Assembly: GCF_037042905.1 (NCBI RefSeq)
Contig: NC_087249.1
Span: forward strand, 51,026,001-51,090,000
DNA length: 64,000 bases
Reading direction: 5' to 3'
Origin: Lytechinus pictus
Taxonomy: Eukaryota
This document shows, in pieces, positions 1-12,000 of this stretch. Position numbers: made by a program. Positions within the stretch are counted from its first letter, which is position 1; every line of letters starts with the position of its first letter.

Positions 1-3000
1 TCCGTTGTTTGTGGTCTTTAACATTCTTAACGGCGGCCTCTTGTGTTGGGCATGGTGAGAAGTCTCAGGAACATGAGGAACGGCTAAGGTCTGACCAATA
101 CTGTTGAAGGAGCTTTTCTTCCTAGATATTTCTTGCCGGTTTGTTGGTAGACTTTGGTGGTGAAGTTTCCATGCGTTTCATTGAGTTGCTTAATGCCTGA
201 CCAACATTATGAAATGAATGGGAGTCTCTGCTCTAAATACTTTGTAATCATCGCTACAAGGAGACTTTGGGAATGCATGTTTCATGTCTTTACAAGGAGT
301 AGTTAGCGTTTTGGAAGAGTTTCTTATTCGTGCTTTCCTGTCATCAATTGCTTACTGCTTGACTTAAAAAGTACTAACGAAAGGGTTGGCCTTTATTTGA
401 CCACCAAGACTCTGGATGGATCATGTGGACCTTCGGTTGTTGAGGGTTAGGTAACAGTCATTCAGAGCGCTTTTGTTGTGTAGGATTCCTGACCACTCAT
501 CAAGGGGTGGTTGATAACTGACCAACATCTCTACCCTCGATGTTTCATTACTGGGAGACTTTAGATGTTGATGTCTCAATGAACTTTTAATGTTTCGTCA
601 ACATTCGTGAAGGGGTTTCTGTTCTTAATGGTTTATTAAAGTTGTTAGAGGAAGGTGGACTTTAGAGCTAGAAGTTTCCTGCCGTATTTGACCGACAGAT
701 TTGGTAGCACTTCATTCTCAATACTTTGTTGCCTTCTTTACCATGGTTACTAAATAACTTTGGATGATACACTTTCCAGACGTTTTTTTTTAAAGCACTT
801 GATGGGAGTTCTGTGCTGTTGTTTTTTCTTCCTCTTCTTTTTAAAGGATCATTACCATGGTATGTGAAAGGCATTGCTCATGTCTTGTCTCAATATCTGG
901 ATGCCTTCGAGTTTGGTGAATGTTTTTGTGGAGGATGCTGGGACTTCGGGATCTCACACGTCAACATAGCTGTAGTTGGTTTGGTGATGAATACCAACTG
1001 CTACTGTAATGGCTCAAGGTAGTCAATGGTTCTTGCTGATGCGATGTGAACTCCGTTCAGGACTGAGGCAGAACCATCTATCTTTTACCCTGCTTCCACA
1101 TAAACGACCTCTTAGTAGTCCATTCTGGGTTCCAAGCATGAGACCAGGTCTTCTTACTCCATCCTCACCGACCTCTTGCATTCAGTAGCAGGCAGTGATA
1201 GTTTCGATTTGGTGGAGGATTTCTTCCATGCTCTGTGGCCTCTCAAGTGGATCCTGCTTTGAGCAACTGTCTGCAAGCACCTGTACCTCTTTCACCTCGA
1301 TCTTTTTCGCGATAGACCTGAGGAGCACCCCGAAGGAAAAGATATCGGATGCCACTGAGTATCGTTCCCCATACAGGACAACTTCAGGAGCCAAGAAATA
1401 ACAACCCTTGCCAGCTCTGTATTCGGCCTTTTTCTCCTCAGAGAATCGCTTCTGGTTGGCATAGGCGATGGTGCTGACCAGTCCGAGATCGATGATGACG
1501 GCGTGCCACCGCCTGCTTCGCTTCTCCAACAGGACATTGTTTGATTTCAAGTCGTTATGAAGGAATCCTCTCTCATGGAGCTCCATGATGCCTTTGATGA
1601 TGTCTTGGCAGACCTTGAACAGGTTGTTCACGTCAAGTCGTGGGTTGGGCATGAAGCGAGTGAGAGCTTGATACAGTGGGTAGGTCTTCCCAGTCGCTCT
1701 ATCGCCTATGAAATCCATCACAGTGCACAGGTTTTCATCAATGGTGACCATACCCAGTATCTTGGGGAAGTATGTTGAACCTGACAGCAATTGCTGCAGC
1801 ATTGATTCCTTCACGGCCCTTCCCTTCATCAGGTGCTTCTCTTCCTTGACCAAATCTCCGCAATAGCTTGTCGGCAAGGTCGGTTTCTTGATGGCGATGT
1901 TTTGTCCATCTTCAGCATATCGACCAAGGTAAACCATTCCGTAGGTGCCTTTGCCGAGGATTCGCATGTCGCCAAGATCTCCTGGTAGCTTGTAACCAGG
2001 GAAGGGTAGAATGTCTTCAACGTCAAGGACATCACAGCGGATGTTAGGCATTGATGCAATGGCAGCATGATCGACGGTATTCCTCACTCTGTATCGAAAG
2101 CCACCTCGTTTCTTCCTCAAGCAATTTGTCTTCAGGCTGTTTTGTGTAAAACAAGATAATAAAAATACTAAGTTAACATTAAAATTAGATCGATCCCAAC
2201 TTGTCAAGTTACCTTTGAAAGAGTAATATCAAACATATTTCATGCGCAGCAATATCTTAAAGAAATAACTTTAGGGTATGAGACGCCCCCAACCCTCTTC
2301 CACTCCATTCCTGAAAAGTTTTTGTTACCCCCCCCCCCCATTTTTTTTTTTATTGCTCGATGACTCAAATTTTTGTTGGCAAAAGGTGAAAATATCTTAC
2401 ATTTCAACGAGATCCCGGAGACGTTGAATCAGGGTCTCCTTTCTGGAGTTGTCAAGCTTGAGGATCTTGATGTCGTTCTGAAGCTCTCTCCTGGAAGCCT
2501 TCTGCCTCTCCACACGATCTTTATCCATCCTCTCCGACTGCTGGAGCTGCTCCACCCGGTCTGCCATCAGGGTGAGCTTGGCTTCCAGAAGACTGTGCAT
2601 GGGAGGTGTGATGGTCAAGAAAGGTGTGTAAACGCAGTCACTTGCGTAGTCGTGCATGTAGGTAATATTATTATTAGTAGTATCGCACATGCAAAAGTTA
2701 GAATAAAAAATATCATGCACATCAAGAGGAAGGAGAGATAGTTACAAAGAAAGAGAGGGGAGAGAGAGAGAGAGCGGGGAGAGAAAGAAGAGATGGGAAG
2801 GGGTGAGAAAAAGATGGAAGAGAGAGGGGAGGCAGAGGAGGCAAGAAAGAGGGGTAAGAGAAAGAGGGAGGGAGAGAAACGGAGTCGGAAGAAACAGGGG
2901 AATCGATATAGGTTTAGCTAATACAACGATTAAACAAAGAAAAGATGGAGATGGATTTAATTCGAAAATAGGAATTTGAGATCATTATTGATATAAATAT

Positions 3001-9000: not shown

Positions 9001-12000
9001 CGGATGCTCAACCTCAAACTTTTGAGTCTGAGGCCGAGCCTCGGTTGAATCCAAATCAGAATGAGTCTGCCCTTCCACATGCTCATGAGCGAGAGTCTCT
9101 GCGATGAGTCCAGGCTTTGTCCCATTCTGAAGGCAGTCTCCTACTGTGGTGAGTTGAGTAACGGTCTCATCCATGAGACCGATGCTGCTACCATGGCTAC
9201 TGGCAGATGACTCAATAGGTAATTGAGTCAGTTCTTCCACAGGCTCATGAGTGAGAGTCTCTGTGTTGAGATCGGACTTTGTCTCATCTCCAACTGGAAT
9301 AACAGTGCCGTGTGCAGCGGTCTTGGTCTTGAGACTGATGCTGCCACTCGCTTCTGAATCCATACCAGACTGAGTGTGTCCTTTCACAGGCTCGTAATTA
9401 AGAGTCTCTGTGTTGAGTCCAGTCCGGGAAAGGGACTCGGCAAGCTCGATCTTCTGAGTGAGAGTTCCTGATAGATCCATGATTGATCCCTGTACATTCA
9501 TATGCTCAAGAATGTGAGTCTATATCTGTACTAGTTGATCCTCAGTCTGAATCTGTAAGTCTCTATCTATGCAGATAGATTTGAGACAGCTTCCGTCCCA
9601 AGGATTTAGTGATACCACCCGAAAAATTCCTGAAATCAAAGGGACATGAAAACATTGTGAAATGGCATGGAAGAAGACACATCCAATATCAAGGAAATTT
9701 TGAACGAATGCATTATTTATTACAGTGGCGTGATGAGCCAAATTTTTTGAGGGGGGGGGCTAGATATGGCGTATCTTGTCAATTTTTTTTTTTTTTTGTT
9801 GCAAGCGAGCAAAAATTTCGACGTTTTTATTACAAAAGTACAAATTTGTTATAGATTTTGCGATAATATTCAGAATATGATATATTCCATCCTTCTGTTT
9901 TTCCTTTTCTTTTTTTTTCTTGGTCGTGAAAAATTTGGGGGAGCCCCCCCCCTTATCTGATGGCCACTGATTTATAGTTTGACCATAAAACATGCACCTA
10001 GTGCCGCTAAACTACACATTGAGCATAATGAGGATAATCACTATAATCTATCTTGAATAAAAGTTATCATGAAAACTACTTTACTTAAATCTGTTTTGTT
10101 ATGCATGTAAGGTTGTCCTTTTACTGACAGGTTTATAATAAGTTTTGAGATCAACTGACTAACAGTAATCTGCAGTTCAAACTTCAGAAATACTATTTTT
10201 ATTTTATTTTTTTGTTTAATACAAACACGTTCAAGTTAGCGTGATGTGCCAATCCTGAATGAACGATACAGATACAGAACACACACATCATGCAAATATT
10301 CGTACTTTTTGTAAGTCATCAAACCTGCAAGGGATTTTAAGTTTTCATTGAATAACACGACATCAAAATCAAACGAAACACTCAATACCACCATAGTTAA
10401 ACATTAAAAAATAAGGATAAAAATAATTTTTAATTACCTGAATTTAAAGTTTTTAACTATCAGAAATATATGGCAGGTTTTATCACTTCCAAAATCGCTT
10501 GAAAGAGACGTAAAAGCTGTGGGAATTCTCGAAAAATCACCAGAATAGCAACACGAATGCTACTAATTAAAGAGATAAGACAAGAATGACGTTTGTTGAT
10601 TTTGCAGGGATCGAGCGAGCGGGGCTTAATTCACTGCGCATGCGTTGTAACTATAGGGAAAACTTTTAGCCAATCGCGCACTTTGGATGAGGTGAATCTA
10701 ATGAATATTCATATATTTATGTCAGCGCGTAACACTTTCGGCCAATTGAATCGTTGGCAAAACCAGTTTTCCCCGTACCAGGGCTAATGACGTCATAAAG
10801 CATTTCGCGCAAGGATTATGCTTTGAGAAATGACGAAACAATGGATATGAAAATATTATCCTATTTTTGTGTGTGTTGGGCAGTGGCGGATCCGGGGGGG
10901 GGCACAGCCAGACCGTGCCCCCCCCCCCCCTTGAGGGGCACAATTAAAATTTGTAATGTAAAAATGTCCTTTTTTTTTGCTTGTCAAGTTTTTTTCGTGG
11001 ATGAAATTTCCTTAATTTTCGGTTGAAAACATTTTTTTTGGGGGGGGGGCTTGACAAATTCTTTCGTGGACGAAATGTCCTTAATTTGTGGTTGAAAATC
11101 TTTTTTTTCATGTCAATTGTGCCCCCCCCCCCCTTGGAAAATCCTGGATCCGCCCCTGGTGTTTGGTAACGGTCATACTACTGTTTCGGGTCTCCAACTA
11201 CATGTAGCTTCTATATTTGAGTTTGTTATTTAAAAAATAACATTTTACTCAACCTCATTCTGGAAACAATGAGAGCAATGCTATTATGGCAACAATCACA
11301 AACGGAAATGTTAGACTCTTAAAAAAAACGCTTTCGGGGATATAATTCTTCTCTTCATTTTCTTTCAAGGTATGTGATTTTTTTTTATTTAAAAAAAAAA
11401 AAAAAAAAAAATTGAGGACCTTTTATATTAAAAAAGGGGGATTTTTATTTCTATAACTTTTATTTGAATAATTATATTATGAAATGCATTTGTTAAGAGG
11501 ACATGACATATATAATCATCAGTGGCCGAGCTCCTGAACTTCACTGACCCCATCTCTCTACACTCGTCTAGCTCTCTCACATCACTTAGTTCTTCAACAA
11601 CCTTGCAGCTAACACCAGGACCCCGAATGTTACCTAGTTATGGTGATCGAACCTTCTCTGTTCTTGCCCAAATCCAATGGAATAAATTGCCATAATGCAC
11701 ACATAATGCCAACTACCTCAATCAATTTAAGACCTTGCTAAAGACCCGCCTTTTTAATAATTAGATATTATTTTGTAGGTTGGTCTCTGTGGAAGTGCAC
11801 ATCAGTGGTTTCATTTTGTTTCTTTTTAACTTGAGATTATGTAATCCATTCATTCATTGATTCTATTGGTTGAACCTTTTTTTACATTCCAGGTAATTAA
11901 GAAGTAATCAGAAGTTTAGCGCTTAGGAAAATAGATCTGTATTAAGCGCCTTATAAATACTATTATCACGATTTAAAAAAACTGGCCAAATAACATAAAA

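What the first reader, a model, noticed from the sequence alone, without database searches (positions are those of the whole stretch)
1182..9501. Hidden 10-exon gene: repeat + coiled-coil stalk fused to an intronless non-RD kinase
Seen: ten GT-AG exons join into a 901-aa ORF, although the ORF track shows only fragments. The kinase keeps all catalytic residues but has HND instead of HRD and DLG instead of DFG. It is encoded by one exon, while the stalk is split into many small exons. Established: non-RD kinases do not need activation-loop phosphorylation in the usual way and are enriched among innate-immune signalling kinases (e.g. IRAK1/RIPK-type). Inference: a mobile or retroposed kinase cassette was captured by a coiled-coil gene, giving a lineage-specific oligomerisation-activated kinase. 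I cannot assign it to any named family.
Basis: partly seen in the sequence, partly recalled or inferred. Interest (0 to 1): 0.65.

Follow-up and report, generated by a model that had tools for sequence, protein, structure and literature searches.

The report
Sea-urchin coiled-coil stalk kinase gene
This is a real ten-exon sea-urchin gene for a protein kinase on a long helical stalk; it belongs to an uncharacterised kinase family whose members are already predicted in related urchin genomes, so it is modestly interesting rather than strange.

Summary
Ten GT-AG exons on the minus strand (9501..1182) fit in phase and give 2706 nt, that is 901 codons plus a stop. Homologous protein models from Strongylocentrotus purpuratus (809 and 818 aa), Diadema antillarum (680 aa) and Lytechinus variegatus (394 aa, 96% identical) match the exons in order, with matches that abut at the predicted boundaries. 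The last exon encodes a whole kinase unit with every catalytic residue, HND for HRD and DLG for DFG.

The HND motif is a family trait: 77 of 90 aligned relatives carry N and none carries R. The stalk is built from repeated modules of about 45-60 aa, mostly one per phase-0 exon.

The helix-to-kinase junction is conserved in relatives only about 30-35% identical, orthologues occur in three echinoid genera, and I found no transposon marks.

No named kinase family fits; B-Raf, RIPK1, IRAK4, JAK and TNIK score about equally. Oligomerisation and any immune role remain untested. The joined protein was not searched or folded.

The parts
8854..9501 (-). Exon 1 (648 nt, 216 aa). ATG at 9501-9499. T/S/E-rich, low-complexity N-terminal region.
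   Evidence: composition; in-frame TAG 7 codons upstream. Matches the N-termini of S. purpuratus P0002/P0151 at 43-46% identity.
9034..9417 (-). Three copies of a 75-nt (25-aa) repeat core inside exon 1, at 9417..9343, 9270..9196 and 9108..9034.
   Evidence: family D2 (69-73% identity, spacing 162 and 147 nt) and (DNA self-hits). By my reading, the S. purpuratus proteins show two such units, so copy number differs between species.
8145..8327 (-). Exon 2 (183 nt, phase 0/0): stalk module 1.
   Evidence: A second AG 8 nt downstream (8321-8320) would break the frame; the AG at 8329-8328 keeps it and matches P0151 from its first residue.
7397..7573 (-). Exon 3 (177 nt, phase 0/0): stalk module 2.
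   Evidence: (66-69% identity to the S. purpuratus proteins).
6307..6435 (-). Exon 4 (129 nt, phase 0/0): stalk module 3.
   Evidence: (39% identity to exon 2 over 28 aa, E 0.002-0.007).
5868..5930 (-). Exon 5 (63 nt, phase 0/0): short helical segment.
   Evidence: 50% identity to S. purpuratus, abutting exon 6 at 322|323.
5133..5300 (-). Exon 6 (168 nt, phase 0/0): stalk module 4.
   Evidence: (matched over nearly its whole length, query 2-56 of 56, by Diadema P0003 182-236, abutting exon 7 at 237).
4123..4251 (-). Exon 7 (129 nt, phase 0/0): a helix followed by a polybasic patch with two Trp, at 4182..4138.
   Evidence: A basic patch with aromatic residues lies in the same alignment block in P0002, P0151, P0003 and P0013 (columns about 700-730). 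P0012 carries a similar patch elsewhere.
3197..3258 (-). Exon 8 (62 nt; ends 2 bases into a codon).
   Evidence: The L. variegatus model P0001 starts at the Met inside this exon.
2401..2592 (-). Exon 9 (192 nt; starts with the 3rd base of a codon and ends 2 bases into another): last helix of the stalk, with a conserved end motif.
   Evidence: 92% identity to P0001, 57-60% to S. purpuratus; heptad score 1.0; end motif conserved in P0012, P0013, P0014, P0022, P0030.
1182..2136 (-). Exon 10 (955 nt with stop 1184-1182): ~55-aa conserved linker plus the whole kinase domain (Pfam match at 1967..1206). HND at 1559..1551, DLG at 1490..1482.
   Evidence: Pkinase 1.8e-23, PK_Tyr_Ser-Thr 3.5e-22; alignment to EGFR and HRI; conserved catalytic residues; family.

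Best explanation
Shown: this is an intact, conserved echinoid gene. The window is from a Lytechinus-like sea urchin and is not human.

The gene encodes a ~900-aa protein with no signal-peptide-like or membrane-spanning stretch that I could see by eye. Its parts, in order:
- a disordered T/S/E-rich repeat head;
- a long helical stalk made of repeated ~45-60-aa modules, mostly one per phase-0 exon, which suggests growth by exon duplication;
- a polybasic patch with two Trp in the middle of the stalk;
- a last conserved helix;
- a conserved ~55-aa linker;
- a catalytically complete Ser/Thr-type kinase.

The kinase belongs to an uncharacterised, tyrosine-kinase-like (TKL-like) family whose hallmark is HND in the catalytic loop (non-RD). 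The stalk-plus-kinase arrangement, with the kinase unit on one exon, is old within this family rather than a recent capture.

Inferred: the stalk pairs or bundles two or more chains, so that the non-RD kinase domains are held close and act on each other or on a bound substrate. On this reading, control comes from clustering or localisation (the basic patch) rather than from the usual Arg-phosphate lock of RD kinases.
For: Gene model.

Kinase fold and residues:
- Pfam hits for exon 10 only; none of the 9 other exons has a hit above its cut-off.
- Residue-by-residue alignment to EGFR and HRI puts HND on HRD, DLG on DFG and the exon's IAIKK on AIKK.
- In 90 aligned family members: K83 in 89, E110 in 88, D195 in 89, N200 in 90, D216 in 89, G218 in 89, E251 in 89, R299 in 87. 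Position 194 is N in 77, C in 7, G in 4, A in 2 and R in 0.
- HxDLKxxN is the Ser/Thr-type loop (recalled from Hanks and Hunter).

Family size: 28 representatives at E<=1e-30 and 411 at E<=1e-10 in 1.84 billion proteins.

Orthologue group: window + L. variegatus (SH-aLRT 99), a 5-row echinoid clade (98) and an 18-row clade (99) (the same picture with FastTree).

Stalk:
- Modules align to each other.
- A profile from window exons 2, 3, 4 and 6 finds 4 copies in each S. purpuratus protein, copies in Diadema, and P0013.
- Stalk exons are as conserved as the kinase (57-70% against 62-64% identity to S. purpuratus).
- Heptad-like segments occur only in the stalk of P0002.

Old junction.
Against: No transcript evidence was available to me; the support is from protein models of other species, which may themselves be predictions.

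The coiled coil rests on a crude home-made heptad score only. Structure prediction and the self-association test never returned a result, so pairing of the stalk is inference.

The L. variegatus model (394 aa) and an older S. purpuratus model (401 aa, with a different first exon) are short. The main product could therefore be a short isoform with only the last helix.

Alignment A2 was chosen by me. Of 155 hits I kept proteins of 240-1200 aa with at most one catalytic-loop match (96). I then dropped 7 more (P0019, P0042, P0066, P0086, P0101, P0104, P0121), three of which carry HRD. '0 of 90 with Arg' is therefore partly by construction.

No functional datum of any kind exists for this family in what I searched.
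Confidence: 0.6

Rival explanations
1. One reading: a mobile or retroposed intronless kinase cassette was captured by a coiled-coil gene, giving a lineage-specific fusion.
For: The whole catalytic unit (linker + kinase) is on one exon while the stalk has nine exons. Family members of ~335-350 aa consist of just this unit, so it behaves as a self-contained module.
Against: The same architecture occurs in Strongylocentrotus and Diadema. The junction helix and linker are conserved in relatives only about 30-35% identical. The stalk module is shared with P0013.

GC3 of exon 10 is like that of the other exons. No flanking repeats were found, and 0 of 94 family proteins have transposon domains.

All 4 short models I examined (P0004, P0005, P0007, P0008) begin with an 11-17-aa F/I/L/Y-rich leader just before the position of the window's exon-10 acceptor. 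This looks like read-through of a polypyrimidine tract, so they may be truncated predictions of genes with the same intron (inference).
Confidence: 0.1
2. It is the echinoid orthologue of DSTYK (RIPK5), as the RefSeq name of one S. purpuratus relative suggests.
For: [quoted passage not shown] DSTYK also has a long N-terminal region and a C-terminal kinase of TKL type (recalled; passages of PMC9573974 place it near IRAK/RAF).
Against: Four automatic names are given to close relatives: DSTYK-like, DDB_G0281745, At2g47060 and PKC delta-like, besides 'uncharacterized'. The name therefore reflects a weak best hit. The family has many paralogues. I had no DSTYK sequence from any tool, so no direct comparison was made.
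Confidence: 0.08
3. The functional product is mainly a short isoform (last helix + kinase) from an internal start, and exons 1-7 are rarely used or belong to a separate upstream transcript.
For: The L. variegatus RefSeq model starts at the Met inside exon 8. An older S. purpuratus model (P0168, 401 aa) has a different 21-aa head joined to the exon 9 equivalent.
Against: Two S. purpuratus models and one Diadema model run through the whole stalk into the kinase. Phases fit across all nine junctions in the window with no stop. Stalk exons are as conserved as the kinase.
Confidence: 0.15
4. It is a catalytically dead scaffold (pseudokinase) like KSR3 or MLKL.
For: Non-canonical HND and DLG. Profile hits to B-Raf are among the best.
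Against: All catalytic residues are present and near-invariant in the family. KSR3 lacks the GxGxxG, VAIK, HRD and DFG motifs (passages of PMC10322840). DLG is the normal motif of active RIPK1 (passage of PMC9573974).
Confidence: 0.05

Closest known systems
Uncharacterised echinoid proteins: S. purpuratus LOC105443716 (809 aa) and 'DSTYK-like' (818 aa), Diadema antillarum 'uncharacterized protein' (680 aa), L. variegatus 'probable serine/threonine-protein kinase DDB_G0281745' (394 aa)
   Same: Same order of parts and collinear exons. Kinase identity is 62-64%, 50% and 96% respectively.
   Different: The window's exon 1 has three repeat units, against two by my reading of the S. purpuratus proteins. 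S. purpuratus lacks about 14 aa at the end of exon 6. The L. variegatus model covers only part of exon 8 and exons 9-10.
TKL-group kinases with solved structures (B-Raf, RIPK1, IRAK4), and also JAK, TNIK/MINK and MST1
   Same: Kinase fold and catalytic residues. The family profile scores 80-87 bits against all of them. DLG as in RIPK1 (passage). Non-RD, as I recall for IRAK1 and RIPK1/2.
   Different: No hit stands out; the single-sequence best E is only 1.6e-13. No death, CARD, RHIM, RBD or C1 domain. The stalk has no Pfam or PDB match.
Kinases that are activated through coiled-coil or helical oligomerisation regions (Fes/Fer, DSTYK, PKG leucine zipper, MLK/DLK zippers, ROCK; all recalled)
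   Same: A helical, heptad-like region beside a kinase domain; likely works by bringing kinase domains together (inference).
   Different: No sequence relation was found. Here the helix region is N-terminal, very long, built of exon-sized modules and interrupted by a basic patch.
MLKL (recalled)
   Same: Helical N-terminal part, a connecting helix, then a C-terminal kinase-like domain. Basic residues that could meet membranes.
   Different: MLKL is a pseudokinase, while this protein keeps every catalytic residue. A four-helix bundle was not testable.

Membership tests
Eukaryotic protein kinase superfamily | Match to Pfam Pkinase or PK_Tyr_Ser-Thr above the gathering score | tested here: met
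   83.8 bits (cut-off 31.7) and 79.4 bits (cut-off 23.1), exon 10 only.
Eukaryotic protein kinase superfamily | Gly-rich loop, VAIK Lys, alpha-C Glu, catalytic Asp and Asn, DxG Asp, APE Glu | tested here: met
   all are present in the window and in 87-90 of 90 relatives; the first two glycines of the loop in 82 and 84 of 90, the third in 77.
Non-RD kinases | The residue before the catalytic Asp is not Arg | tested here: met
   HND at 1559..1551, aligned to HRD of EGFR. N in 77 of 90 relatives, R in 0 (see the caveat on how the 90 were chosen).
DSTYK / RIPK5 | Orthology to DSTYK by reciprocal best hit or tree | not testable with these tools
   No DSTYK sequence was returned by any search and none is in the PDB hits. 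The RefSeq names of close relatives disagree.
IRAK / Pelle | N-terminal death domain | tested here: not met
   No death-domain hit in any window exon or in 0 of 90 relatives.
IRAK / Pelle | Kinase domain nearest to IRAK kinases | tested here: inconclusive
   IRAK4 scores 80-81 bits, no better than B-Raf, RIPK1, TNIK or JAK.
RIPK1-3 | Death, CARD or RHIM region beside the kinase | tested here: not met
   only kinase-type Pfam families. RHIM is short and may escape Pfam.
KSR3 | Remodelled ATP site and loss of the GxGxxG, VAIK, HRD and DFG motifs | tested here: not met
   These motifs are kept here. KSR3 features come from passages of PMC10322840.
MLKL | Pseudokinase domain lacking catalytic residues | tested here: not met
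   Catalytic residues are present.
MLKL | N-terminal four-helix bundle | not testable with these tools
   Structure prediction was not accepting jobs.
Retroposed gene copy | Intronless coding unit | tested here: met
   Linker + kinase lie on one exon, 2136..1182. The rest of the gene has nine introns.
Retroposed gene copy | Flanking target-site duplications or a poly(A) remnant | tested here: not met
   No direct repeat pair flanks exon 10 in 1..12000. Old events would have lost such marks.
Retroposed gene copy | An intron-containing parent gene | not testable with these tools
   No eukaryotic genome collection was on hand.
Coiled-coil protein | Heptad periodicity and long helices that pair | tested here: inconclusive
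   A crude heptad score is above its 99% shuffle threshold only in the stalk of P0002 (86 of 782 windows). No standard predictor, fold or complex result was obtained.

The most novel reading that the evidence does not exclude
The HND kinases are an undescribed family of marine-invertebrate kinases. In this reading, the stalked members work as self-assembling signalling or effector machines. The modular stalk bundles several chains, the polybasic-Trp patch takes the bundle to a membrane or to nucleic acid, and the non-RD kinase fires on clustering. This would be an echinoderm counterpart of IRAK/RIPK/MLKL-type innate-immune assemblies, built from unrelated parts.
Probability: 0.1. Interest if true: 0.6.

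Novelty: new variant of a known kind. Interest (0 to 1): 0.33.

Why it matters
It gives a full-length model for a gene that the L. variegatus annotation holds only as a 394-aa piece.

It also defines an orphan kinase family by three features that can each be tested at the bench: invariant HND, an exon-modular helical stalk and a basic patch with aromatic residues. Non-RD kinases are linked to innate immune signalling in plants and animals (start of the abstract of PMC8463890, seen in the search listings). Sea urchins are known for large immune gene families (recalled), so a fast-diverging non-RD kinase family there is a reasonable candidate for follow-up.

It does not overturn anything known. 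The gene family is already in public protein sets under automatic names.

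Tried and rejected
- Joined protein: not built, searched or folded; every search used single exons, so nothing here tests the protein as one chain.
- Pfam on the nine stalk and head exons: nothing above cut-off.
- PDB profile search with the stalk modules: best E 0.009 to a polyketide synthase docking domain, taken as chance.
- ESM Atlas: it could not read the window's sequence. With P0013 and P0002 it returned only generic kinase clusters, with taxa mostly not recorded.
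- The listing of cluster members: switched off, so the species of P0004-P0150 stay unknown.
- Third homologue search: wasted. The alignment query set the 'longer' length range to 1958-5000 aa and returned only two giant proteins.
- Structure prediction: never accepted a job.
- Complex prediction (two copies of the P0002 stalk, residues 140-492): queue full or no usable answer in 10 tries, then the cap was reported as used. No verdict of any kind.
- Iterated stalk-module profile: added no protein beyond the first round (P0012 at E 0.22); its later E-values are circular.
- KSR3 identity: rejected.
- Tandem paralogue in the window: none; exon 10 hits only itself at E<=1.
- Literature: no paper holds LOC105443716 or DDB_G0281745 together with urchin. 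The searches gave nothing on this family. Supplements were closed and might list these genes in expression tables.

Full report
WHAT IS THERE. The finding lies on the minus strand. I read 9700..1100 and fixed ten exons: 9501..8854, 8327..8145, 7573..7397, 6435..6307, 5930..5868, 5300..5133, 4251..4123, 3258..3197, 2592..2401 and 2136..1182. A script checked them without joining anything, using phases by arithmetic and translating each exon alone. All nine introns are GT...AG, no exon has an internal stop, and the phases fit. Exons 1-7 are phase 0 on both sides. Exons 8/9 split a codon as AG|T (Ser) and exons 9/10 as AT|C (Ile). A TAG lies in frame 7 codons before the ATG. Exons have 43-57% G+C and introns 25-39%. 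The window has no N.

IS IT MORE THAN CHANCE. The 348-codon stop-free run around exon 10 beats all 200 shuffles of the first 12 kb (max 218) and all 200 random strings of local composition (max 243). The exon 1 run (227 codons) would not pass that test alone. The stronger evidence is homology, described next.

RELATIVES, SEARCHED EXON BY EXON. Following the operators' note, I searched the model one exon at a time and left out the joined step: the 901-aa protein was never assembled, searched or folded.
- Exon 10 against 1.84 billion representatives gave 28 proteins at E<=1e-30 and 411 at E<=1e-10.
- Further named relatives are a Diadema antillarum uncharacterised protein (680 aa, 50%), a Diadema setosum 'protein kinase C delta type-like' (345 aa, 41%) and, far off, an Actinia tenebrosa kinase (30%).
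- The window is therefore from a Lytechinus-like sea urchin and is not human.
- Per-exon blastp against these proteins is collinear, and the matches abut where the exons end.
- The reverse search, five homologous proteins against the whole 64-kb window, hits only exons of this gene and no other place.
- The L. variegatus protein reads ...SATI-S-LLEAK... and ...DLVE-I-LKTN..., the very residues predicted for the two split codons.
- I had no RNA-seq, so the support is at the level of other species' protein models.

THE KINASE.
- Only exon 10 has Pfam hits: Pkinase 1.8e-23 and PK_Tyr_Ser-Thr 3.5e-22.
- In the alignments to EGFR and HRI, HND sits on HRD, DLG on DFG and the Lys of IAIKK on the VAIK Lys.
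- In an alignment of 90 family members the catalytic residues are near-invariant: K83 89, E110 88, D195 89, N200 90, D216 89, G218 89, E251 89, R299 87 of 90.
- The residue before the catalytic Asp is N in 77, C in 7, G in 4, A in 2 and R in none. The DxG middle residue is F in 44 and L in 34.
- HND is thus a family hallmark, not a quirk of this gene.
- Caveat: I picked the 90 rows. From 155 hits I kept those of 240-1200 aa with at most one catalytic-loop match (96) and then dropped seven multi-stretch or partial ones, three of them HRD-bearing. In the raw list, the HRD hits among the top 150 are almost all multi-kinase giant models.
- DLG is also the normal motif of RIPK1 (passage of PMC9573974).

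WHICH FAMILY. None that I can name.
- The single sequence reaches only E 1.6e-13 against all solved structures (EGFR, HRI, CDKs, TNIK).
- The family profile scores 80-87 bits alike against JAK, B-Raf, TNIK/MINK, RIPK1, IRAK4 and MST1.
- Close relatives carry four different automatic names.
- None of the 90 relatives has any Pfam domain besides kinase-type ones: no death, TIR or CARD domain.
- KSR3, a sea-urchin RAF-family protein, is excluded because it lacks the very motifs kept here (passages of PMC10322840).
- I could not test DSTYK directly because no tool gave me a DSTYK sequence.

THE STALK AND HEAD.
- Exon 1 is T/S/E-rich and holds three copies of a 75-nt unit. By my reading, the S. purpuratus proteins show two.
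- Exons 2, 3, 4 and 6 are variants of one module: a short strand-like start, then S/T-P-E, then a helix with a Trp or Phe. Exons 2 and 4 also find each other in the window (E 0.002-0.007).
- A profile made from these four window exons alone finds four copies in each S. purpuratus protein, copies in Diadema, and the 1118-aa protein P0013 (E 7.9e-5 among 174 proteins).
- The modules sit mostly one per phase-0 exon, which is what exon duplication would leave (inference).
- The end of exon 7 encodes a polybasic run with two Trp (4182..4138). Basic patches with aromatic residues lie in the same alignment block in P0002, P0151, P0003 and P0013.
- A crude heptad score of my own is above its shuffle threshold only in the stalk of P0002 (86 of 782 windows, all within residues 172-494) and in the pre-kinase parts of P0151, P0003, P0013, P0012 and P0014. 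P0012 has one further segment at 587-614, inside its kinase domain.
- No Pfam or PDB match exists for the stalk.
- Stalk exons are as conserved between Lytechinus and Strongylocentrotus as the kinase (57-70% against 62-64%), so the stalk is under constraint.

THE CAPTURE IDEA. Trees of the kinase domain (FastTree on 90 rows; IQ-TREE quick on 38 rows) give three nested groups:
- window + L. variegatus (support 99);
- an echinoid clade (98-99);
- an 18-19-row clade (98-99).

Long-stalk members occur in three of the four subclades of that larger clade (the window clade, P0013, P0012) and in the sister clade (P0014, P0022, P0030).

In the alignment around the exon 9/10 junction, the last helix, the junction and the ~55-aa linker are recognisably conserved in P0012, P0013, P0014, P0022 and P0030, whose kinases are only about 30-35% identical to the window's. 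All 4 of the ~340-aa models I looked at (P0004, P0005, P0007, P0008) start with 11-17 residues rich in F/I/L/Y just before the position of the window's exon-10 acceptor. That is what translating a polypyrimidine tract gives, so they may be truncated predictions of genes with the same intron (inference).

GC3 of exon 10 (0.596) is like that of exons 1-9 (0.545). No repeat pair flanks exon 10. None of the 94 family proteins scanned has a transposon-type domain. The arrangement is therefore old in this family. A recent, lineage-specific capture is not supported, though an ancient retroposition cannot be excluded.

HOW IT LIKELY WORKS. Shown: an intact gene, a catalytically complete Ser/Thr-type non-RD kinase at the C-terminus, and a constrained modular helical stalk with a basic patch. 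Inferred: the stalk pairs or bundles chains and holds the kinase domains together, and the basic patch sets the location. The kinase lacks the Arg that in RD kinases reads a phosphate on the activation loop (recalled, Johnson et al. 1996). On this view it is governed by proximity rather than by that switch.

The listing of PMC8463890 links non-RD kinases to innate immunity, but its title reports that activation-loop phosphorylation of a non-RD kinase does matter. I found nothing that ties this gene to immunity.

WHAT STAYED OPEN. These items remain unchecked:
- transcript support;
- the fold of the stalk and its self-association (structure and complex tools gave no result);
- the species of the unnamed relatives (switched off, wasted);
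- intron positions in relatives (no eukaryotic genome collection);
- the DSTYK comparison;
- paper supplements (closed).

VERDICT. This is a real, conserved orphan-family kinase gene that is already predicted in sister species under automatic names. Its tidy exon-module stalk and family-wide HND motif seem not to have been described in the papers I could search. Interest is modest.

Noticed in passing
window 52627-57399 (-): A 1590-codon open frame encodes a P-loop STAND ATPase (NPHP3_N/AAA_16/NACHT-like, TANC1-type lid and winged helix), a long run of ankyrin repeats and a low-complexity S/P/Q-rich tail. It looks like a TANC/ANKRD50-like gene with one giant exon.
   Followed up: partly
window 1182-3258 (-) against the L. 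variegatus model P0001: The RefSeq protein of L. variegatus (394 aa) starts at a Met inside exon 8, although the window carries an open, conserved 901-aa model. Either the annotation is truncated or a short isoform exists. An older S. purpuratus model (P0168) has another 21-aa head joined to the exon 9 equivalent.
   Followed up: partly
window 4138-4182 (-), end of exon 7: A polybasic run with two adjacent Trp interrupts the stalk. Similar basic patches with aromatic residues occur in P0002, P0151, P0003, P0013 and, elsewhere in the chain, P0012. It could be a membrane-binding patch, a nuclear signal or a calmodulin site; this was not tested.
   Followed up: no
window 8854-9050 (-), end of exon 1: An R-G-D triplet lies in a P-S/T-Q-R-G-D context. 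The S. purpuratus proteins carry similar P-x-x-R-G-D units. I saw no signal peptide by eye, so an integrin role seems unlikely.
   Followed up: no
window 8320-8329 (-): Two AG acceptors lie 8 nt apart in front of exon 2. Only the upstream one keeps the frame, and it matches P0151 from its first residue.
   Followed up: yes
window 3830-4062 (intron 7) and 6964-7031 (intron 3): Long purine/pyrimidine-rich simple sequence (GAA/GAG-like on the gene strand) gives spurious K/E-rich and S/F/L-rich open frames.
   Followed up: no
window 24800-25850 (+): A strongly C/T-skewed stretch (GC skew -0.35 in 24001-26000) carries overlapping S/P/F/L/H-rich open frames of 129-207 codons in three frames. It is probably simple sequence rather than a gene.
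   Followed up: no
P0002 and P0151 (S. purpuratus): Two full-length copies are 88% identical over 818 aligned positions. Each is reported from a contig of the same length (29,984,350 nt), so this is a recent duplication or two haplotypes. The window holds only one copy in 64 kb.
   Followed up: partly
P0024, P0020, P0019, P0080 (hits): Giant models hold several kinase stretches. P0024 fuses a PDS5-like protein to about nine short HND/HSD catalytic-loop fragments spaced 51-138 aa apart, which looks like a tandem array of kinase fragments merged by gene prediction.
   Followed up: partly
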